62,386 nucleotides of DNA from the NCBI GenBank assembly GCA_964440545.1, contig CAYTSO010000004.1:1-62386 (forward strand). The letters are read 5' to 3'. This DNA comes from an uncultured Candidatus Saccharibacteria bacterium. Its GTDB lineage: Bacteria > Patescibacteriota > Minisyncoccia > Phycocordibacterales > UBA9973. Numbering within the stretch: the stretch's first letter is position 1; each line of letters begins with the position of its first letter. The translations under genes and the position numbers were made by a program. The notes under the pieces are model-generated. The model saw only the letters and a program-made list of their open reading frames with translations, searched no databases and was not told the origin of the DNA. Shown here one piece after another: positions 4,083 to 52,198 of this stretch.

Positions 4083-5078
4083 TTAGATACTGAAATTAGA
4101 AATATTATATAGCTCGGCATCATCTTGTTTTATTTCATCTTGAGTTCTGTCGTCGAGCGCTTCTTCTGAATTATCTATTTCAGTTTTTCCTTTATTTTCC
4201 TGAGAAATATGGTTTATATGATTCTCAAGCATTTCGATGGGTTTTTTTTCTATTTCAGATTTCTTGATTAAGTCTAAGATTGTACGCAAATCCTCTGTGG
4301 AAAAAAAATCAATTTTTATTTGCCCGCCGAGTTCCTTCCTGTCTATGTGGACACGAGTTCCCAATTTTTCCTGAAACTCTTCCTCTAATTCTGTGATTTC
4401 CGGGTCAGGCATAAATTCTTTCTTGCGTACACGGTCATAGGCAATTTTTCTAGCAAGTTTTTCTGCCTCCCGTACGGTAATCTTTTTGTATAAAATTTCC
4501 TTAAATAAAACTAGTTGCTCTTCTGGGTGGTCAATAAGCATTAAAATAGGGCGGGTATGTCCTTCGGTGATTTTTCCCTCAGACAGAGCATTTAAGATTT
4601 CCTCTGGCAAGCTCAAAATACGCAAGGAGTTGGAAACGTATACCCTGCTTTTGCCCATTTTTTTTGCTATCTCGTTATGGGTAAATTTGAACTCATTAAC
4701 TAACCTTAGGAATGCTCTAGCTCGATCAACCGCATTTAAGTCCTCCCGTTGGAGGTTTTCTATAATAGCAAGTTCAAGCTTCATAATTGCTGTATCGCCA
4801 GTGCGGATAATAACAGGAATTTGCGATACCATAGCAAGTTTGGCGGCACGTAATCGCCGTTCTCCGGCTATCAATTCATATTCTGTTACCAGGCCACCAC
4901 CCTCCTTTTCAACTTCAACTCGAGAAACAATAAGTGGCTGTAGAACCCCATATTGTTTTATTGAATCGGCTAAATCTTGCAACCGCGCCTCGTCAAAATC
5001 CCGTCTTGGCTGAAACGGATTTGGTTTAATTTTGTCGGTATTGATCCAAAAAATTGAATTAGAATATACGTTGGACAT
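4083..5078 (-). CDS. parB: Chromosome partitioning protein ParB/Spo0J
   Basis: KPNPFQPRRDFD, GVLQPLIV and GERRLRAAKLA motifs; 331 aa. Confidence 0.9.
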   Translation of the reverse strand: MSNVYSNSIFWINTDKIKPNPFQPRRDFDEARLQDLADSIKQYGVLQPLIVSRVEVEKEGGGLVTEYELIAGERRLRAAKLAMVSQIPVIIRTGDTAIMKLELAIIENLQREDLNAVDRARAFLRLVNEFKFTHNEIAKKMGKSRVYVSNSLRILSLPEEILNALSEGKITEGHTRPILMLIDHPEEQLVLFKEILYKKITVREAEKLARKIAYDRVRKKEFMPDPEITELEEEFQEKLGTRVHIDRKELGGQIKIDFFSTEDLRTILDLIKKSEIEKKPIEMLENHINHISQENKGKTEIDNSEEALDDRTQDEIKQDDAELYNISNFSI

Positions 5079-5113
5079 GACTCTATTTTAACATAAAGAA
5101 TTTTTTTTGGTAA

Positions 5114-5142
5114 TTGATTTTTAAGCGTTTTTTGTGTAAAAT
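5114..5142 (+). promoter_or_regulatory. Sigma70-type promoter for tRNA-Leu (and probably murA-miaA)
   Basis: TTGATT (5114-5119), 17-nt spacer, TAAAAT (5137-5142). The tRNA starts at 5160. Confidence 0.45.
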
Positions 5143-5159
5143 GTGTGAATTGGGTTTTT

Positions 5160-5243
5160 GCCCGGGTGGCGGAATTGGTAGACGCGATAGACTCAAAATC
5201 TATTGTTGGCAACAACATGAGAGTTCGATTCTCTCCCCGGGCA
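5160..5243 (+). tRNA. tRNA-Leu(CAA), class II with a long variable arm; no encoded CCA
   Basis: Acceptor stem GCCCGGG/CCCGGGC, anticodon loop CTCAAAA, T-arm GAGAGTTCGATTCTCTC. Confidence 0.9.
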
Positions 5244-5250
5244 CAATAAA

Positions 5251-6582
5251 ATGAAACAAACAAAAATACAACATAGTACTTCCACTGACTTTTTGGTAAA
5301 AGGCGGAAAGAAATTGCATGGCACTATTAGAACAAATTTCTCAAAAAACGGGTCAGTGGGACTTTTGTGTGCCTCATTGTTGAACAAAGGTACGACCACC
5401 CTGCATGGTATTGCTCGAATTGAAGAAGTTAATAGGGTAATTGAAATATTGAAAAGCATAGGAGTTAAAATTAAATGGGAAGATAAAAATACCGTAAAAA
5501 TTATTCCGCCAAAGAACTTTAATTTTAAAAATATCAATATTGAATCTGCAATCAGGACTCGTTCTGTAGTTATGTTAATTGGCCCTCTTGTGCATTATTT
5601 AAAATCCTTCAGTTTGCCCCATGCGCATGGTTGTACTTTAGGCAAACGCACCATCGCCGCTCATATATACGCTCTAGAGGAGCTGGGGATAAAAATAAAA
5701 ACTACATTTCAAAATTATGAAATAAACGCTAAAAGTAAAAAACCAGCAGAGATTGTGATGTATGAATCTGGAGATACGGCTTGTGAAAATGTTCTAATGG
5801 CTGCCGCCTTAATTCCCGGAGTGACAAAAATAAGTTTTGCGAGCGCTAATTACATGGTGCAGGAAATTTGTTTTTTTCTTGAAAAGTTGGGGGTAAGGAT
5901 AGAGGGCATCGGCACCGCCACTCTAACAGTGCATGGTATAGAAGAAATAAATAAAAATATTGAATACTGGAATAGCGAGGATCCAATTGAGTCCATGATG
6001 TTTATTTCTGCCTGCGTGATAACTGACTCAAAATTGACCATTACTAGATGCCCTATTGATTTTCTTTCTTTAGAACTAGAAAAGCTTAGGAGAATGAATT
6101 TGCAATTCAAAATTCTAAGAAAATATTATTCTTACAACAGAAGGACCAAGCTTGTCGACATTAGAATTTTCCCAAGTAAACTTATTGCTTTGTCTGATAA
6201 AATTCATTCAAATCCTTATCCTGGTATAAACATAGACAATCTTCCCTTTTTTGTGCCCATTGCTATCCGGGCCAAAGGTCAAACCATGATTCACGATTGG
6301 GTTTATGAAAATCGGGCCATCTACTTTACAGAGCTAAATCGTCTTGGGGCGAATATTGTTTTAGCCGATCCACATCGAGTTTACGTTACTGGTGGCACTA
6401 AATTAAGGGCTGCTCAAGTGGTCTGCCCGCCTGCACTACGCCCTTCTATGATTATTTTTATTTCCATGTTAGCAGCCGAAGGAACTTCCATATTGCGAAA
6501 TGTGTATATGATCAATCGTGGCTATGAAGAAATTGCCAAACGCCTAAACTCCATCGGCGCAGATATAAAAATTTTGAAATAA
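5251..6582 (+). CDS. murA: UDP-N-acetylglucosamine 1-carboxyvinyltransferase
   Basis: 443-aa EPSP-synthase-fold protein. N-terminus LVKGGKKLHGTIRTNFSKNG; Cys-containing loop HAHGCTLGKR. Starts 8 nt after tRNA-Leu. Confidence 0.85.
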   Translation: MKQTKIQHSTSTDFLVKGGKKLHGTIRTNFSKNGSVGLLCASLLNKGTTTLHGIARIEEVNRVIEILKSIGVKIKWEDKNTVKIIPPKNFNFKNINIESAIRTRSVVMLIGPLVHYLKSFSLPHAHGCTLGKRTIAAHIYALEELGIKIKTTFQNYEINAKSKKPAEIVMYESGDTACENVLMAAALIPGVTKISFASANYMVQEICFFLEKLGVRIEGIGTATLTVHGIEEINKNIEYWNSEDPIESMMFISACVITDSKLTITRCPIDFLSLELEKLRRMNLQFKILRKYYSYNRRTKLVDIRIFPSKLIALSDKIHSNPYPGINIDNLPFFVPIAIRAKGQTMIHDWVYENRAIYFTELNRLGANIVLADPHRVYVTGGTKLRAAQVVCPPALRPSMIIFISMLAAEGTSILRNVYMINRGYEEIAKRLNSIGADIKILK

Positions 6583-48506: not shown

Positions 48507-49369
48507 TTTATTTTTTCCAAAATCCTTAATTTCGCACTTCTAGACCGTGGATTATTTTTTGTTTCCTCTTCCGTTGCTTTAATTGGTTTTTTATTTATTA
48601 AAATTGCCAATCCTTCCTTTTCCTTTAACTTATAAAATTTTTTGGTAATCCTATCTTCTAAGCTATGAAAAGAAATCACTGCCATTCTTCCTTCCGCTTT
48701 TAGGACCTCAAAAGCTTTCTCCAGTCCCTTTTGCAAAACCCTCAATTCGTCATTTACTGCTATTCTTAATGCCTGAAAAGTTTTTGTGGCGAAATGGATT
48801 TTTCCTCTTTTGTATATTCCGGGAACCCCCTTCTCAATTATTTTTACTAAATCATGGGTGGTTTCTATCTTATTTTTTTCTCTTGCCTGGATGATCGCTC
48901 GAGCAATTTTTCTTGAATATTTTTCCTCTCCATAGCCATATATAATATCGGCTAAATTTTTTTCCTCCCAGGTATTTACAATATCTTTTGCCGTAACGTC
49001 TTCCGGAAGAGGATTTTCCTTCATGGTCATCAACAAGGGTTCGTTTTTCATAAAAGAAAATCCTCGTCCAGAATTTTCCAATTGGTCTGAACTCAAACCA
49101 AGATCAAAAATTATGCCATCAACTTTTTCACTCTTTAAAACTTTGTCTAGATCAGAAAAATTTTCATTGTGAAAAGAAATTCGAGCATTATTTTGTTTCC
49201 AAACATTTTTGTCCTGATCTAGGGCAATTATTTTTGCTTCTGGAAATTTCTTTAAAATTTCCTTGCTGTGCCCACCTCCTCCATAGGTACAATCGAGAAC
49301 AACCGAATTTGGTTTAATATTCAAACCCTCTATTGTTTCTTTTAAAAGAACTGTTTTATGCACACTCAT
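48503..49369 (-). CDS. rsmH: 16S rRNA (cytosine1402-N4)-methyltransferase
   Basis: HKTVLLKETIEGL, DCTYGGGGHS and DLGLSSDQL motifs. Confidence 0.95.
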   Translation of the reverse strand: MSVHKTVLLKETIEGLNIKPNSVVLDCTYGGGGHSKEILKKFPEAKIIALDQDKNVWKQNNARISFHNENFSDLDKVLKSEKVDGIIFDLGLSSDQLENSGRGFSFMKNEPLLMTMKENPLPEDVTAKDIVNTWEEKNLADIIYGYGEEKYSRKIARAIIQAREKNKIETTHDLVKIIEKGVPGIYKRGKIHFATKTFQALRIAVNDELRVLQKGLEKAFEVLKAEGRMAVISFHSLEDRITKKFYKLKEKEGLAILINKKPIKATEEETKNNPRSRSAKLRILEKIK

Positions 49370-49794
49370 AACCTTTCTGCTAATTCCCCCGCCTGTTTTT
49401 CAACCACTTCTTGATTCTTCAGCCATGTTTTTTCATTCCAAATTTCCACTCTGTCTTCCACTCCGATGATGGCTGCCTTGTCCTTAAGCCCAATTCTGTC
49501 CTTTAAAAAATCTGGAATTAAAATTCTACCGATTGAATCTATTTCTACTTCTGCTGCTCGACCAAACATGTATCGATTAAAACTTCTTTGGTCTGCTTTC
49601 AGAAAAGAAAGATCATTGCTACTGGTAGAAAGTCTCTGGCTTACCTTCACCCACTCTTTAGCTGTAAAAACGAACAAACAAGAATCTAAGCCGGGAGTAA
49701 TAATAATTTTCTTGCCCATTTCCTTTCGAAATTTTTTCGGCATTGATACTCTATTTTTTTCATCTATTGTGTGGATGTATTCGCCGATGAGCAT
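49366..49794 (-). CDS. mraZ: Transcriptional regulator MraZ
   Basis: Start trimmed to ATG 49794 (MLIGEYIHTIDEKNRVSMPKKFR). Two SpoVT/AbrB-like repeats. Confidence 0.9.
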   Translation of the reverse strand: MLIGEYIHTIDEKNRVSMPKKFRKEMGKKIIITPGLDSCLFVFTAKEWVKVSQRLSTSSNDLSFLKADQRSFNRYMFGRAAEVEIDSIGRILIPDFLKDRIGLKDKAAIIGVEDRVEIWNEKTWLKNQEVVEKQAGELAERL

Positions 49795-49924
49795 AAGTTT
49801 AAAAAAATTACTTATTAACAGATTTCCCACTTTTTCCCACTTAGTTAACATTATAAACCACCAATATATTATGACCAAATAAAAACTGTGGATAACTCTC
49901 CAAGGATTCAAGAACAATAATTTA

Positions 49925-49953
49925 TTGACTAATATCCTGGAATGTGACATATT
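49925..49953 (+). promoter_or_regulatory. Sigma70-type promoter with an extended -10 (cassette 7), divergent from mraZ
   Basis: TTGACT (49925-49930), 17-nt spacer ending in TGa, CATATT (49948-49953). Confidence 0.5.
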
Positions 49954-49975
49954 TTCACTGAAAGGAGACTGTGAA

Positions 49976-50113
49976 ATGTTTATGTTCGTTGTAACTATGG
50001 GTGTGTTCTTTTTGGCAACCAAGGCCTTGACGACCTTTGTGATTTTTGCCGGAGTAATCGTGTGGAAAATTGGTTTTGATATCCTTGGGGTTGACCACGA
50101 TTCCCCTATCTAA
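49976..50113 (+). CDS. Orphan 45-aa hydrophobic (two-TM-like) micro-protein
   Basis: AAAGGAG, then 7 nt, then ATG 49976. MFMFVVTMGVFFLATKALTTFVIFAGVIVWKIGFDILGVDHDSPI. Confidence 0.45.
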   Translation: MFMFVVTMGVFFLATKALTTFVIFAGVIVWKIGFDILGVDHDSPI

Positions 50114-50125
50114 GGAGGTAATGTG

Positions 50126-50317
50126 ATGGTACTAGAGATAATTTGGCCCACGAAGAGGTTCTTTAATTCAGCGCAGGTTGCGAAGCTTCTCGGAAAACCA
50201 GTAAACCCAGAGAACGCTTTCCGACCCGAGATTCTTCAGATTCGGGGAGGAAACGACGAGGACATCAAAATTTTAACAGACCCCGAAAACGGGTTCAGGG
50301 TGAAAAAAGTCACCTAG
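50126..50317 (+). CDS. Orphan 63-aa protein (possible small HTH: FFNSAQVAKLLGKP)
   Basis: AGGAGG (50113-50118) overlaps the upstream stop, then 7 nt, then ATG 50126. The track start is GTG 50123. Confidence 0.5.
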   Translation: MVLEIIWPTKRFFNSAQVAKLLGKPVNPENAFRPEILQIRGGNDEDIKILTDPENGFRVKKVT

Positions 50318-50329
50318 AAAGGGGGCAGA

Positions 50330-50449
50330 ATGGTATGGTTTCTACTTGGCGTGCTAGTTGTTTTCATTCTAGCCGCCATCGCAGAAAAGCAAGGCAAAGC
50401 AACAGAAACGGGGGCGTACGATACCCCCCTGATTGACTTCGAAAAGTAA
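50330..50449 (+). CDS. Orphan 39-aa single-TM micro-protein
   Basis: AAAGGGGG, then 4 nt, then ATG 50330. MVWFLLGVLVVFILAAIAEKQGKATETGAYDTPLIDFEK. Confidence 0.4.
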   Translation: MVWFLLGVLVVFILAAIAEKQGKATETGAYDTPLIDFEK

Positions 50450-50461
50450 ATATTGTAAATT
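50433..50461 (+). promoter_or_regulatory. Candidate internal sigma70 promoter placing a TSS at the first base of hairpin 1
   Basis: TTGACT (50433-50438), 17-nt spacer, TAAATT (50456-50461). Position +7 is 50468. Confidence 0.4.
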
Positions 50462-50467
50462 CTTTCT

Positions 50468-50539
50468 GTGGGGAATCCCGCACCAAGATGGGGCGAGTAC
50501 GGACAGCGTCCGTGACGATTCTATCGCGGGATTCCCCAC
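50468..50539 (+). repeat. Inverted repeat / hairpin 1
   Basis: GTGGGGAATCCCGC (50468-50481) and GCGGGATTCCCCAC (50526-50539) are perfect reverse complements. An inner hairpin ACGGAC-AGC-GTCCGT is present. Confidence 0.9.
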
Positions 50540-50559
50540 GCCAATGTTCCTTCCCTTGT

Positions 50560-50627
50560 GCGGGGAATCCTGGAATCATACGGGCCTTGTTCCCCCCAAG
50601 GTCCCCCCGGGTTCTGGGATTCCCCGC
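50560..50627 (+). repeat. Inverted repeat / hairpin 2
   Basis: GCGGGGAATCC (50560-50570) and GGATTCCCCGC (50617-50627) are perfect reverse complements. An inner helix GGGCCTTG/CAAGG(T)CCC is present. Confidence 0.9.
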
Positions 50628-50665
50628 TCCAACGCTCTTATTCAGAGCTAAATCTAAAAATAAAC

Positions 50666-50690
50666 GCCTCGCTTTTGCGAGGCTTTTTTT
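50666..50690 (+). terminator. Intrinsic terminator of cassette 7 / the hairpin RNA
   Basis: GCCTCGC-TTTT-GCGAGGC followed by TTTTTTT. Confidence 0.75.
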
Positions 50691-50709
50691 ATTTATATAT
50701 CACATAAAA

Positions 50710-50734
50710 CTGAAGGAAATCGGACTTCCTTCAG
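50710..50734 (-). terminator. Intrinsic terminator of lysS
   Basis: CTGAAGGAA/TTCCTTCAG 9-bp stem followed on the minus strand by TTTTAT. Confidence 0.6.
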
Positions 50735-50740
50735 CAGAAA

Positions 50741-52198
50741 TTATTCCTTTGGTCGCATTAGTGGGAACAACTGAGTTTCCCGAACCGGCTTATCAACCAG
50801 AAAAGCAAAAAGGCGTTCACCAAAACCAAAACCAAAACAAGGTGGCATCCCATATTCAAGCATTTCTACAAACTCCATATCAGGCATCATTGCCTCCTCG
50901 TCTCCTTTTTCAATTAATTTTTTTTGTACCTCAAAACGTTCCTCTTGGTCGAGAGGGTCATTCAGTTCAGCATGTGCCCGGCCAATTTCACTTCCGGCAA
51001 TAATTACCTGGAACATTTCTGTCTTGCGACTATCCTTTGGATTTTCCTTAGAAAGCGGGGCAACAAGTTTCGGGTGATTCATCAGAAAAGCTGGACCAGA
51101 AATATTTTTCCGACAATATTTCCACAAAGAATCCGTCATCCTTTCTTTGTTTTTTCCTTCAAATTCTACCCCGAGTTTTTTCAGTGTATCTTCCATTTTT
51201 TCTTCATCGTCCTCCAATACATCAATACCGGTTTGTTTTTTAACCTCCTCTACATAATCTATTTCCTGCCAGTCGCCTGCCAAATCAAACTTGTGTCCCC
51301 TTGTTTGAAATTCTGTTTTTCCGAAAACTTCTTTTGCTATTTTTATATATAAATCCCGCACCATTTTTTTTCCTTCATCTGTGTTTAGATAAGAAGCATA
51401 AAATTCCATATTGGTGAATTCCTGAAGATGCTCAGCGCTTCCTCCTTCATTTCTGTAAACTCTTCCGATTTCAAAAGTTTTCGGAAAACCAGCGGCCATT
51501 AATCTTTTTTGCCAAAGTTCTCCTACGGAAATTCTTAAATATACATCCAGATCAAAATCACTATGGTGAGTTTTAAATGGTCTAGCTTCTGCTCCACCGG
51601 TAGTTAATTCAAGAGTTGGTGTTTCCACTTCCAAAAATCCCCTTTCTTTTAGAAAATTTCTAGTAACTTCCCAGAACTTTTCCTTCTTTTCAAAGACTTC
51701 CTTGATTTCGGGACTCATTAAAATATCTAGATACCTTTTTCGAAATCTTTCCTCTGGGTCAGTAAGCCCGTGCCATTTTTCCGGCAAGGGACGCAGGCTT
51801 TTTGACAACATGCCCCAATCTTTTATTTCCAACGTCTTTTCTCCCCTATTTGTTTTAAAAAAGGTTCCTTGAATTTCTATAAAATCTCCGATGTCAATTA
51901 CTTCATTCCACAAATCAAATTTTTCATCGCCGACGATATCTTTCTTGAGTAATCCTTGGAAGCTCCCCGTTCCATCATTTAAGGTGATAAAAATAATTGC
52001 CCCCTGTCCACGAATAGACATTATTCTTCCGGCAATCCATTTTGCGTCCTTTTTATTTTCCAGAATCTCAAAATTGTCAATCGCTGTTTTAAGCGTTATT
52101 TCCCTTTTGGAAAATGCCGGATAGGGATTTATCCCTTTATCCTTTAGGAGTTTAAGTTTTTCAATTCTCGTGTCCCTAATTTCATCAATTGAAGACAT
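50741..52198 (-). CDS. lysS: Lysine--tRNA ligase (class II)
   Basis: 485 aa; OB anticodon-binding domain plus class II core (FRNEG-like YRNEGGS). Confidence 0.95.
   Translation of the reverse strand: MSSIDEIRDTRIEKLKLLKDKGINPYPAFSKREITLKTAIDNFEILENKKDAKWIAGRIMSIRGQGAIIFITLNDGTGSFQGLLKKDIVGDEKFDLWNEVIDIGDFIEIQGTFFKTNRGEKTLEIKDWGMLSKSLRPLPEKWHGLTDPEERFRKRYLDILMSPEIKEVFEKKEKFWEVTRNFLKERGFLEVETPTLELTTGGAEARPFKTHHSDFDLDVYLRISVGELWQKRLMAAGFPKTFEIGRVYRNEGGSAEHLQEFTNMEFYASYLNTDEGKKMVRDLYIKIAKEVFGKTEFQTRGHKFDLAGDWQEIDYVEEVKKQTGIDVLEDDEEKMEDTLKKLGVEFEGKNKERMTDSLWKYCRKNISGPAFLMNHPKLVAPLSKENPKDSRKTEMFQVIIAGSEIGRAHAELNDPLDQEERFEVQKKLIEKGDEEAMMPDMEFVEMLEYGMPPCFGFGFGERLFAFLVDKPVRETQLFPLMRPKE

What the first reader, a model, noticed from the sequence alone, without database searches (positions are those of the whole stretch)
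50433..50690. Tandem long GC-rich hairpins sharing a GGGGAATCC/GGATTCCCC stem core: candidate novel sRNA
I counted 60% G+C (108/180, 50461-50640). Hairpin 1 has 14-bp perfect arms, GTGGGGAATCCCGC (50468-50481) and GCGGGATTCCCCAC (50526-50539), around 44 nt that contain a second hairpin (GTACGGAC-AGC-GTCCGTGAC). Hairpin 2 has 11-bp perfect arms, GCGGGGAATCC (50560-50570) and GGATTCCCCGC (50617-50627), around 46 nt that contain GGGCCTTG/CAAGG(T)CCC.

The 5' flanks are also similar: TTCTTTCTGTGGGGAATCC (50460-50478) and TTCCCTTGTGCGGGGAATCC (50551-50570). This suggests a diverged tandem duplication in which the stems are conserved while the interiors differ. That is the pattern expected for selection on RNA structure or on a stem-binding protein.

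A TTGACT-N17-TAAATT promoter (50433-50461) places +1 exactly on the first base of hairpin 1. A strong terminator follows at 50666-50690, giving a transcript of about 220 nt. No ORF in the region has an SD. Possible roles are a protein-sequestering or antitoxin-like RNA for the adjacent micro-protein cassette, a REP-like mRNA stabiliser, or a recombination/binding site in DNA.
Basis: partly seen in the sequence, partly recalled or inferred. Interest (0 to 1): 0.75.

Follow-up and report, generated by a model that had tools for sequence, protein, structure and literature searches.

The report
Orphan small RNA gene, Nomurabacteria
The two GC-rich hairpins are real and most likely form the body of a roughly 220-nt non-coding RNA with its own promoter and terminator; relatives of this RNA sit at the same spot in several uncultivated Nomurabacteria genomes, it matches no described RNA family, and its function is unknown.

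Summary
The region is the most GC-rich 180 nt of the window (0.606 against 0.374) and folds far better than shuffles (z = -8.5).

The window comes from a Candidatus Nomurabacteria (CPR) genome. The hairpins lie in a hypervariable spacer, 130-2560 bp across relatives, between lysS and mraZ.

BLAST finds no homologue. A promoter + long stem + N-CCA descriptor, run over about 1 Mb of 80 related loci, hit only this spacer (plus one true tRNA), always on the strand opposite lysS/mraZ. Hits are in L019, L020 (two units) and L028; L018 and L140 carry related units.

The arms differ between species but still pair: 83 of 84 basal pairs are canonical, against 58% when arms are swapped between hairpins. 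G·U pairs make the + strand 6-9 kcal/mol more stable. A wider set shares a 3' module (UUGUUCUU, small hairpin, terminator).

There are no dispersed copies, no Rfam match, and no tRNA, REP or MITE features.

Verdict: a lineage-restricted candidate sRNA family, a new member of a known kind. Its mechanism is inferred, not shown: a stable RNA whose 5' hairpin protects it and whose C-rich unpaired segments may pair with targets. Expression is untested.

The parts
50433..50461 (+). Promoter of the RNA gene: TTGACT-N17-TAAATT, with TG just upstream of the -10. It overlaps the last codons of micro-ORF3.
   Evidence: Consensus scan. An equivalent TTGAC(T/A)-N16-17-TAnAnT lies upstream of the homologous hairpins, scoring 8-11 of 12 and ending 6-31 nt before the stem, in L020 (twice), L019, L028, L018 and L140, within otherwise unalignable sequence.
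50468..50539 (+). Hairpin 1 (72 nt). The basal helix has 14-15 bp, then an ACCAAGA bulge (50482-50488), a G.U-rich middle helix, and an apical stem ACGGAC-AGC-GUCCGU. The predicted transcription start is at its first base.
   Evidence: -44.2 kcal/mol on the + strand, -37.7 on the - strand. The orthologue in L020 has compensatory changes.
50540..50559 (+). Single-stranded linker GCCAAUGUUCCUUCCCUUGU. It begins with the N-CCA-A tail of hairpin 1 and holds AUGUUCCUU (50544-50552), a variant of the UUGUUCUU motif of relatives. It is C/U-rich and resembles an anti-SD sequence.
   Evidence: Unpaired in the MFE and centroid structures. Motif comparison. C-rich unpaired runs.
50560..50627 (+). Hairpin 2 (68 nt). 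The basal helix has 18 bp including three G.U pairs. The apical stem is GGGCCUUG/CAAGGUCC with a 7-nt loop UUCCCCC.
   Evidence: -44.4 kcal/mol on the + strand, -37.6 on the - strand. L028 has a similar base, GCGGCGACCUGG...CUGGGUCGCCGC-UCCAAC.
50628..50665 (+). 3' tail: UCCAAC, a small hairpin GCUCU-UAUUC-AGAGC (50634-50648), then an A-rich spacer.
   Evidence: The tail resembles the one after L020 hairpin 1, GCCAAGCUCUUUAUUUUGAGAAC.
50666..50690 (.). Intrinsic terminator GCCTCGC-TTTT-GCGAGGC plus T7. It reads as a terminator on both strands, so it ends the RNA gene and backs up lysS termination.
   Evidence: both strands.
49925..50449 (+). Neighbouring micro-ORF operon. The promoter is TTGACT-N17-CATATT (49925-49953). 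ORF1 is 49976-50113 (45 aa, hydrophobic). ORF2 is 50123-50317 (64 aa). ORF3 is 50330-50449 (39 aa, hydrophobic N-terminus). Each has an SD. This is context, not shown to be functionally tied to the RNA.
   Evidence: The ORF2 family is in WIN, L017, L018, L019, L020, L137 and L140. No Pfam or PHROG match.
49831..50740 (.). The hypervariable lysS-mraZ spacer that holds all of the above.
   Evidence: The order greA-lysS-gap-mraZ-rsmH is conserved in 80 relatives. The gap is 132-2564 bp and its content differs between species.

Best explanation
The two hairpins are the structured body of one small non-coding RNA gene of about 223 nt. Transcription starts at about 50468, the first base of hairpin 1, from the promoter at 50433-50461. 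It ends at the terminator at 50666-50690.

The gene belongs to a lineage-restricted family found only in the variable lysS-mraZ spacer of some Candidatus Nomurabacteria, always on the strand opposite the flanking genes. A family unit has this order:
1. a promoter (absent where the unit lies in the 3' UTR of an upstream small ORF);
2. one or two long GC-rich hairpins whose sequence evolves fast while pairing is kept;
3. a short C-rich tail, usually N-CCA-A;
4. a U/C-rich single-stranded stretch (UUGUUCUU in relatives, AUGUUCCUU here);
5. a small hairpin;
6. an intrinsic terminator.

Shown: the anatomy, the homologues, the conserved pairing, the strand bias, the single-locus distribution, and the absence of any known family.

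Inferred (mechanism): a hairpin that starts at +1 shields the 5' end from 5'-dependent decay and gives a stable RNA. The unpaired C/U-rich segments are the likely working surfaces. These are the linker at 50540-50559, the apical loop UUCCCCC of hairpin 2, and the tails. They would act by pairing with purine-rich (Shine-Dalgarno-like) mRNA sites or by binding a protein. The targets are unknown.
For: Taxon and synteny:
- 80 loci with LysRS 64-87% identical, titled mostly Ca. Nomurabacteria, Paceibacterota or (TPA assemblies) Saccharibacteria, keep greA-lysS-gap-mraZ-rsmH.

Homologues:
- A descriptor (promoter, stem of 10 bp or more, N1-2CCA) was run over 0.98 Mb on both strands. It hits only the spacer, on the strand opposite lysS, in WIN, L019, L020 (twice) and L028. 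The one other hit is a true tRNA.
- L018 and L140 carry related units.
- L028 shows a clean stand-alone unit: upstream terminator, TTGACA-N17-TATATT, hairpin, small hairpin, terminator.

Pairing:
- 41 of 41 cells are paired in 14 pairs. Three pairs changed on both sides. Sliding the 3' partner gives 34-64% paired.
- In seven hairpins anchored at the helix base, 83 of 84 basal pairs are canonical. Ten of 12 positions show two or more pair types. Arms swapped between hairpins pair at 58%.

Strand:
- WIN h1, WIN h2, L020 h1, L020 h2 and L018 are 6-9 kcal/mol more stable on the + strand.
- G.U pairs number 28 on the + strand against 16 on the - strand.
- Unpaired C:G is 138:36 on the + strand (C/G 3.83); the reverse complement gives C/G 0.67.

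3' module:
- UUGUUCUU is invariant in six species.
- Model R2 finds 11 matches with E < 0.01 in 1.03 Mb. All are in the spacer and on that strand. Six are training sequences and five are new: L026, L027, L033, L051, L057.

Not repeats, not a known family:
- No other copy in the window.
- Scans of IMG/VR and JGI metagenomes with the stem pattern give only unrelated, mostly high-GC, chance-like hits.
- No phage or plasmid similarity.
- No Rfam family at gathering score. No consistent sub-threshold hit in WIN, L020 or L028.
Against: - No expression data of any kind. The promoter, start site and terminator are consensus matches supported only by conservation.
- The family rests on few, related genomes: seven hairpins in six species for the promoter-bearing subgroup. 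The helices used for the 83/84 count were defined by their pairing, which is partly circular.
- The window's own unit lacks the exact UUGUUCUU motif and is not found by model R2 (E > 1). Its link to the wider family runs through L020.
- In L026, L027 and L033 the equivalent hairpin directly follows a stop codon and has no promoter. A cis role in an mRNA 3' end is therefore possible.
- No target was found. Complementarity of the linker and tail to the neighbouring operon is at background level. The complement of the motif has no conserved position in the 13-kb loci.
- The unpaired C excess is largely explained by composition plus folding bias. Shuffles give C/G 3.0 against 3.8 observed.
Confidence: 0.6

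Rival explanations
1. A cis-acting 3'-end element of the micro-ORF operon. The hairpins would stabilise the upstream mRNA against 3' exonucleases. Together with the bidirectional terminator they would insulate the operon from convergent lysS transcription. On this reading they are not a separate RNA gene.
For: - The hairpins follow ORF3 on the same strand, and the putative promoter lies inside ORF3's last codons, so operon read-through must include them.
- In L026, L027 and L033 the equivalent GC hairpin starts about 20 nt after a stop codon with no promoter-like site scoring 8/12 or more.
- The region is a convergent gene junction with a bidirectional terminator.
Against: - In L028 the unit is preceded by a strong terminator and has its own near-consensus promoter (11/12), so it cannot be the 3' UTR of the upstream gene.
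- In L018 the whole unit lies upstream of the ORFs, next to mraZ, driven by the main divergent promoter.
- L020 hairpin 2 has its own promoter.
- Hairpins 1 and 2 lack U tracts, so they are not terminators themselves.
- An invariant single-stranded UUGUUCUU downstream of the hairpin is not expected for a pure stabiliser.
Confidence: 0.17
2. A protein-binding or decoy RNA that mimics the acceptor arm of tRNA. It would be a blunt helix of 12 bp or more starting with 5'-G, followed by a single-stranded N-CCA-A, with two units in tandem like a tRNA operon. It would be recognised, and perhaps processed, by enzymes that read tRNA ends.
For: - N-CCA follows the basal helix in WIN h1 (GCCA), WIN h2 (UCCA), L020 h1 (GCCA), L020 h2 (CCCA) and L028 (UCCA). 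'CCA' is among the few invariant columns.
- The stem starts 6-7 nt after the -10 element in WIN h1, L020 h1 and L028.
- WIN h2 and L028 carry G1-C72, C2-G71, G3-C70 and U73. From general knowledge this is the bacterial tRNA-Gly acceptor identity set. This is a recollection, not a test.
- Only 2 of 7 tRNA genes in the window encode CCA, so the motif is not a genome-wide habit.
Against: - L140 has ACCCCCCCC and L019 has ACCCACAA after the stem, so CCA is not universal.
- Discriminator bases and the first pairs differ between members.
- ARAGORN and the Rfam tRNA model find nothing here, even at E <= 10.
- No cloverleaf is possible for hairpin 2, because there is no 3' T-stem strand.
- No tRNA-end enzyme or toxin is encoded nearby.
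Confidence: 0.08
3. An antitoxin-like or regulatory RNA dedicated to the adjacent micro-protein cassette. In a type I-like version it would control the hydrophobic ORF1 and ORF3. In another version it would be the RNA partner of the ORF2-like protein.
For: - ORF1 (45 aa) and ORF3 (39 aa) are hydrophobic, like type I toxins.
- Among close relatives (LysRS 80% or more), the GGGRAYCC-type hairpin occurs in 5 of 7 spacers that encode an ORF2-like protein and in 0 of 8 that do not. These counts are not phylogenetically independent.
- ORF3's SD is AAAGGGGG and hairpin 2's loop is UUCCCCC (read directly from the sequence).
Against: - The RNA is on the same strand as the ORFs, not antisense.
- Duplex energies of the linker and tail with the operon mRNA fall inside the background: 27% and 20% of control chunks are as good.
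- L017 and L137 have ORF2-like genes but no hairpin RNA. L028 and eight units of the wider family have no ORF2-like gene.
- In L018 the order of RNA and ORFs is inverted.
- ORF2's model (pLDDT 70.6) has no significant structural match (best E = 0.23).
Confidence: 0.08
4. A DNA-level element: a REP/BIME-like or MITE-like repeat, or a recombination or ssDNA-origin site left by a mobile element in an insertion hotspot.
For: - The spacer is hypervariable and has higher G+C than its surroundings.
- In L134 and L135 the same spacer holds a Y1 transposase gene flanked by short palindromes.
- Inverted repeats by themselves cannot tell DNA function from RNA function.
Against: - Only one locus per 62 kb here and per 13 kb in 80 relatives, always at the same site and on the same strand.
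- No direct repeats flank the element.
- No Y1 transposase homologue in the window.
- The L134 palindromes (CCGCTAGG-N6-CCTAGCGG) are unrelated in sequence and size.
- Public-collection scans show no dispersed family.
- G.U pairs on one strand and a flanking promoter and terminator fit a transcript.
Confidence: 0.05

Closest known systems
Stand-alone and 3'-UTR-derived bacterial sRNAs that have a 5' stem-loop and C-rich unpaired regions, such as the RsaE/RoxS-type sRNAs of Firmicutes (comparison from general knowledge)
   Same: - Short transcript bounded by a sigma-70-type promoter and an intrinsic terminator.
- Stable hairpin at or near the 5' end.
- Unpaired C-rich runs (UUCCCCC loop, UCCUUCCC linker) that could pair with G-rich SD sequences.
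- Both promoter-bearing and 3'-UTR-embedded versions exist within one family.
   Different: - No sequence or covariance-model similarity to any Rfam family.
- The hairpins are unusually long (53-101 nt) and make up most of the RNA.
- No target is known.
- The organism is a CPR bacterium, for which three full-text literature searches, only one naming the candidate phyla radiation, turned up no sRNA report.
REP/BIME elements and their RAYT (Y1) transposases
   Same: GC-rich imperfect palindromes in an intergenic region between convergent genes. A RAYT-like gene with flanking palindromes occupies the same spacer in L134 and L135.
   Different: - Single locus, not dispersed.
- 68-72-nt hairpins rather than palindromes of roughly 20-40 nt.
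- No Y1 gene in the window.
- Own promoter and terminator.
- Strand-specific G.U pairs.
tRNA acceptor-TpsiC minihelices and tRNA-like structures
   Same: A basal helix of 12 bp or more beginning with G, followed by an unpaired N-CCA in 5 of 7 members. Tandem arrangement with a 20-nt spacer.
   Different: No cloverleaf, no T-loop, and no match to the tRNA model. CCA is absent in two members. The acceptor 'identity' varies between members.
Type I and type III toxin-antitoxin RNAs
   Same: A small RNA next to genes for very small hydrophobic proteins. Tandemly repeated structured RNA units.
   Different: - Same strand as the ORFs, with no significant complementarity (type I).
- The repeats are about 90 nt, number only two, lie downstream of the ORFs, and no ToxN-like endoribonuclease is present (type III).

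Membership tests
Any Rfam 15 family (including 6S, SRP RNA, tmRNA, RNase P, tRNA, riboswitches) | Covariance-model score at or above the family's gathering threshold | tested here: not met
   - The whole window at gathering score gives only 7 tRNAs, all elsewhere.
- The region at E <= 10 gives a best hit of STnc100, 27.1 bits against a gathering score of 47, driven by the terminator.
- The homologous regions of L020 and L028 give different, insignificant hits.
- Twelve related loci at gathering score give only tRNAs outside the spacer.
Independent bacterial sRNA gene | Own promoter upstream of the structured part | tested here: met
   TTGACT-N17-TAAATT at 50433-50461. Equivalent sites scoring 8-11 of 12 lie upstream of the homologous hairpins in L018, L019, L020 (twice), L028 and L140. 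This is a consensus match plus conservation only; there is no mapping of transcription starts.
Independent bacterial sRNA gene | Intrinsic terminator at the 3' end | tested here: met
   50666-50690: a 7-bp GC stem, a 4-nt loop and T7. Terminators also follow the homologous units.
Independent bacterial sRNA gene | Secondary structure conserved through compensatory change | tested here: met
   (100% and 99% of cells paired; 3 of 14 pairs changed on both sides and 10 of 12 positions with two or more pair types). The sample is small and related.
Independent bacterial sRNA gene | A discrete transcript is made | not testable with these tools
   No transcriptome data are available here.
REP/BIME or MITE | Many dispersed copies in the genome | tested here: not met
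   One locus in the 62-kb window. One locus per relative in about 1 Mb, always in the same spacer. Whole genomes could not be scanned.
REP/BIME or MITE | Associated RAYT/Y1 transposase, or terminal inverted repeats with target-site duplication | tested here: not met
   No Y1 homologue in the window (tblastn best E = 0.22). No flanking direct repeats are seen in the sequence.
tRNA or tRNA-like structure | Cloverleaf recognised by ARAGORN or the Rfam tRNA model | tested here: not met
   No tRNA gene lies in the spacer in any of 60 relatives.
tRNA or tRNA-like structure | Acceptor-type helix followed by N-CCA | tested here: inconclusive
   Present in 5 of 7 hairpins. Absent in L140 and shifted in L019.
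Type I antitoxin sRNA | Extended complementarity to the toxin mRNA | tested here: not met
   The RNA is on the same strand. The best duplexes of the linker and tail with the operon mRNA are -17.0 and -18.7 kcal/mol, and are matched by 27% and 20% of control chunks.
Type III (ToxI-like) antitoxin RNA | Tandem repeats of about 34-45 nt directly upstream of an endoribonuclease toxin gene | tested here: not met
   There are two units of about 90 nt downstream of the ORFs. No Pfam or PHROG hit was found for the neighbouring ORFs.
Intrinsic terminator (for hairpins 1 and 2 themselves) | GC stem immediately followed by a U tract | tested here: not met
   The tails are GCCAAUGUU and UCCAACGCU. The scan reports only 50666-50683 on the + strand.

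The most novel reading that the evidence does not exclude
The hairpins are tRNA acceptor-arm mimics. They would be primary transcripts that begin at the first base of a helix of 12 bp or more and end in an unpaired N-CCA-A, set in tandem like a tRNA operon. WIN h2 and L028 even carry the G1-C72/C2-G71/G3-C70/U73 set of bacterial tRNA-Gly.

Such 'minihelix RNAs' would be processed or bound by enzymes that read tRNA 3' ends, such as RNase P, the CCA-adding enzyme, a synthetase, an aminoacyl-tRNA-dependent transferase or a tRNA-targeting toxin. They would act as decoys or as non-ribosomal aminoacyl carriers in a reduced CPR cell, next to the cell-wall (dcw) cluster.
Probability: 0.07. Interest if true: 0.8.

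Novelty: new member of a known kind. Interest (0 to 1): 0.42.

Why it matters
Regulatory RNAs are essentially uncharted in the Candidate Phyla Radiation. These are tiny-genome, mostly uncultivated bacteria with few recognisable regulators.

A conserved, promoter-to-terminator RNA gene gives a concrete target for metatranscriptomic validation. It lies in the most GC-rich spot of an AT-rich genome and sits beside the division/cell-wall cluster. If validated, it would be a new covariance model for annotating these genomes.

The locus also shows how such RNAs evolve. The hairpin body turns over fast while pairing is kept. Paralogous copies stay alike within a genome. The unit moves relative to its neighbours.

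If the function turns out to be ordinary, such as translational repression through C-rich seeds, the gain is modest: one more orphan sRNA family.

Tried and rejected
**Searches for homologues that found nothing useful**
- BLASTN of the island against 80 syntenic loci gave nothing. Homologues were only found by eye and with a structural descriptor.
- The pattern GGGGAATCC-N30-60-GGATTCCCC in IMG/VR gave 16 loci, and a stricter pattern in JGI metagenomes gave 28 loci. All are unrelated, mostly high-GC, and lack the family's flanks, so they are chance-level.
- Exact-protein look-ups of LysRS and ORF2 found nothing on record.
- ORF2 searched by words and by phmmer against 1.84 billion representatives found only itself plus one spurious hit.
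- There is no similarity to phages or plasmids.

**Covariance models**
- Model R1, built from three hairpins, is too sequence-specific. It recovers only the training set and L020 h2.
- MAFFT could not produce structure-consistent alignments of all hairpins, so the basal-helix statistics were computed with a script.

**Readings that were considered and rejected**
- A tRNA remnant or integration site: no tRNA lies in the spacer of any relative.
- oriC: there is a single DnaA box and no skew switch.
- A target for the UUGUUCUU motif in neighbouring genes: none is conserved.
- ORF2 as an RNA-binding partner: the structure search is not significant.
- SRP or 6S RNA: considered from the shape, but no model hit and the conserved motifs are absent.
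- Integron attC: considered, but there is no ORF between the two hairpins. The presence of intI was not tested.
Full report
**1. Observation**

- Hairpin 1 has 14-bp perfect arms at 50468-50481 and 50526-50539.
- Hairpin 2 has 11-bp perfect arms at 50560-50570 and 50617-50627. These extend to 18 bp if three G·U pairs are allowed.
- G+C is 108/180 = 0.60 at 50461-50640. This is the only 180-nt stretch of the 62-kb window that reaches 0.58; the window mean is 0.374.
- The 9-mer GGGGAATCC and its complement occur four times in the window, all within this region.
- As RNA, the + strand of 50455-50695 folds to -113.2 kcal/mol, against -71.5 ± 4.9 for shuffles (z = -8.5). The - strand gives z = -6.25.
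- The promoter-like site at 50433-50461 and the terminator at 50666-50690 are both reported by the consensus scan. The terminator reads as such on both strands.

**2. Setting**

The neighbours on the - strand are greA, lysS (50741-52198), mraZ (49366-49830), rsmH, ftsL and a PBP gene.

A scan of one genome per species returned 80 loci with LysRS 64-87% identical. Their record titles name mostly Candidatus Nomurabacteria, Paceibacterota or, for the TPA assemblies, Saccharibacteria, all CPR lineages. Nearly all keep the order greA-lysS-gap-mraZ-rsmH.

The gap varies from 132 to 2564 bp. Apart from about 100 nt next to mraZ, its content differs from species to species. The window's 910-bp gap holds, on the + strand:
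- a promoter;
- three SD-led micro-ORFs of 45, 64 and 39 aa;
- the hairpin region.

G+C is raised throughout the gap, at 0.45-0.53.

**3. Homologues**

BLASTN finds none. Read in the window's orientation, however, the gap of L020 (LysRS 85%) contains TTGACT-N16-TAATAT, then 7 nt, then GUGGGGAACCCCGU...ACGGGGUUCCCCGC-GCCAAG. This is a clear orthologue of hairpin 1. It has U→C in the 5' arm matched by A→G in the 3' arm, and the same apical GGAC-NGC-GUCC. A second promoter + hairpin unit lies about 130 nt further on.

A descriptor (promoter-like site, stem of 10 bp or more, N1-2CCA) was run over 0.98 Mb on both strands.
- It hits only this spacer, always on the strand opposite lysS/mraZ, in WIN, L019, L020 (twice) and L028.
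- The one other hit is a genuine tRNA-Glu.

L028 is the cleanest case: upstream terminator, TTGACA-N17-TATATT, 6 nt, a 67-nt hairpin, UCCAAC, a small hairpin, then a terminator.

L140, a close relative of L019, has a shorter hairpin. L018 carries the whole unit upstream of the ORFs, next to mraZ.

**4. A wider family**

The single-stranded stretch after the hairpin is UUGUUCUU in L018, L019, L020, L034, L060, L061 and L140, and is invariant in the six of these that were aligned. It is followed by a small hairpin and a terminator.
- The 8-mer occurs 18 times on this strand of 86 gaps, against 5 on the other strand and a mean of 6.2 for permuted 8-mers.
- A covariance model of this 3' module (R2) finds 11 matches with E < 0.01 in 1.03 Mb. 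All are in the spacer and on this strand. Five are new: L026, L027, L033, L051 and L057.
- In three of those new members (L026, L027, L033) the GC hairpin follows a stop codon, and none of the five has a promoter-like site scoring 8/12 or more upstream. The unit therefore exists in both promoter-bearing and 3'-UTR-embedded forms.
- The window's own unit has only a variant, AUGUUCCUU (50544-50552), in the linker and is not detected by R2. Its membership of the wider family rests on L020, which has both unit types.

**5. RNA rather than DNA, and which strand**
- In the alignment of WIN h1, WIN h2 and L020 h1, all 41 cells of the 14 basal pairs are paired. Three pairs changed on both sides. Sliding the partner by 1-3 columns gives 34-64% paired.
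- For seven hairpins anchored at the helix base, 83 of 84 cells are canonical and 10 of 12 positions show two or more pair types. The 5' arm of one hairpin pairs with the 3' arm of another at only 58%. The helices were defined by their pairing, so this count is partly circular.
- The five closest hairpins are 6-9 kcal/mol more stable on the + strand. G·U pairs number 28 on the + strand against 16 on the - strand.
- Unpaired positions of the six promoter-bearing units hold 138 C but only 36 G. Each unit has an unpaired CCC-containing run and none has unpaired GGG. Much of this follows from composition and folding bias: shuffles give C/G 3.0 against 3.8 observed.

**6. What it is not**
- No Rfam family reaches threshold in the window or in 12 relatives. 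Sub-threshold hits differ between homologues.
- ARAGORN finds no tRNA here or in the spacer of 60 relatives.
- There are no further copies in the window and no Y1 transposase.
- Collection-wide scans with the stem pattern give only chance-like hits.
- There is no phage or plasmid similarity.
- The linker and tail are not unusually complementary to the neighbouring operon.
- The complement of the motif has no conserved position nearby.

**7. Relation to the micro-ORFs**

A local HMM shows that ORF2 belongs to a family of 65-75-aa proteins. One or two copies per gap occur in WIN, L017, L018, L019, L020, L137 and L140. The family is invisible to Pfam and PHROGs, and ORF2 finds no homologue by word or phmmer search.

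Among close relatives, the GGGRAYCC-type hairpin is found in 5 of the 7 gaps with this protein and in none of 8 without it. On the other hand, L017 and L137 have the protein without the RNA, and the wider family has the RNA without the protein. The two therefore travel in the same islet but are separable.

A single-sequence AlphaFold model (pLDDT 70.6, β-α-β-α-β) has no significant structural neighbour.

**8. Mechanism**

Shown: a single-locus, strand-specific unit bounded by a promoter and a terminator, whose long helices are maintained by compensatory change.

Inferred:
- (a) The transcript starts at the first base of hairpin 1. The -10 element ends 6-7 nt before the stem in WIN, L020 h1 and L028. 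From general knowledge of 5'-end-dependent RNA decay, this arrangement best protects a bacterial RNA.
- (b) The free evolution of the hairpin sequence argues that the helices serve as a stable scaffold or shape-specific binding site, not as a seed.
- (c) The conserved or C/U-rich unpaired stretches are the candidate interaction sites. These are the tail N-CCA-A, the UUGUUCUU-like linker and the UUCCCCC loop. They could pair with purine-rich SD regions, as C-rich sRNAs of Firmicutes do (general knowledge).

The within-genome similarity of paralogous stems fits gene conversion or a genome-specific partner. WIN has GGGGAATCC twice, while L020 has GGGGAACCCC and GGGGGACCCC.

**9. Verdict**

It is a lineage-restricted candidate sRNA family that is absent from Rfam: a new member of a known kind. 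Its function is unknown and its expression is untested.

The most novel reading still open is mimicry of the tRNA acceptor arm. It rests on N-CCA after 5 of 7 helices and is weakened by L140 and L019.

Noticed in passing
window 49887-49895 (+): A perfect DnaA box, TGTGGATAA, lies between mraZ and the divergent micro-ORF promoter. The same box is at the same place in most relatives' spacers. There is no cluster of boxes and no GC-skew switch, so it is probably a regulatory site rather than oriC.
   Followed up: partly
window ~49823-49842: Two TTTCCCAC repeats (GTGGGAAA on the mraZ strand) lie just upstream of mraZ, inside a roughly 100-nt block that is 75-92% identical across species. They look like MraZ boxes with the mraZ promoter.
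   Followed up: no
window 50123-50317 (+); also gaps of L017, L018, L019, L020, L137, L140: ORF2 belongs to an unannotated family of 65-75-aa proteins with the motif I-x-I-x-x-W-P-x-K ... L-G ... R-P-E ... G-F. One or two paralogues occur per spacer. The predicted fold is beta-alpha-beta-alpha-beta. It has only weak, non-significant resemblance to ferredoxin-like folds (Cas2, RRM, uL30).
   Followed up: partly
window 49976-50113 and 50330-50449 (+): Two SD-led hydrophobic micro-ORFs of 45 and 39 aa flank ORF2. Similar tiny membrane-type ORFs follow the ORF2-like genes in L017, L018 and L020.
   Followed up: no
L134/L135 gap (locus 4962-6518); L060 gap after the sRNA terminator: A 217-aa Y1 transposase (PF01797) is inserted in the same spacer. 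It is flanked by CCGCTAGG-N6-CCTAGCGG hairpins, a REPtron-like layout. The same short palindrome also occurs in L060, so a REP-like family exists in this lineage. It is unrelated to the hairpins studied here.
   Followed up: partly
L129 gap (reverse-complement coordinates ~755-945) and L130 gap (~262-445): A promoter is followed by a long hairpin (GGTGGTCATAGCCAC...GTGGTTATGACCACC) and a stem that sequesters the SD of a small ORF. This is a candidate cis-regulatory leader, different from the element studied here.
   Followed up: no
window 50482-50488; L020 hairpin 1: An ACCAAGA bulge sits directly above the basal helix on the 5' side in the window. It sits on the 3' side in the L020 orthologue. 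CCAA also recurs in the tails.
   Followed up: no
window 50540-50559 and 50628-50648, compared with L020: The tails appear swapped between genomes. The tail after WIN h2 (GCUCUUAUUCAGAGC) matches the tail after L020 h1. The tail after WIN h1 (AAUGUUCCUU) resembles the tail after L020 h2 (UUUGUUCUU). This suggests recombination between the tandem copies.
   Followed up: partly
window 49909-49917 (+): CAAGAACAA, the exact complement of the family motif UUGUUCUUG, lies between the DnaA box and the -35 element of the micro-ORF promoter. Its meaning is unknown.
   Followed up: no
window 50709-50735 (-): A second terminator-like hairpin lies directly after the lysS stop codon. lysS is therefore followed by two terminators before the hairpin region.
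   Followed up: no
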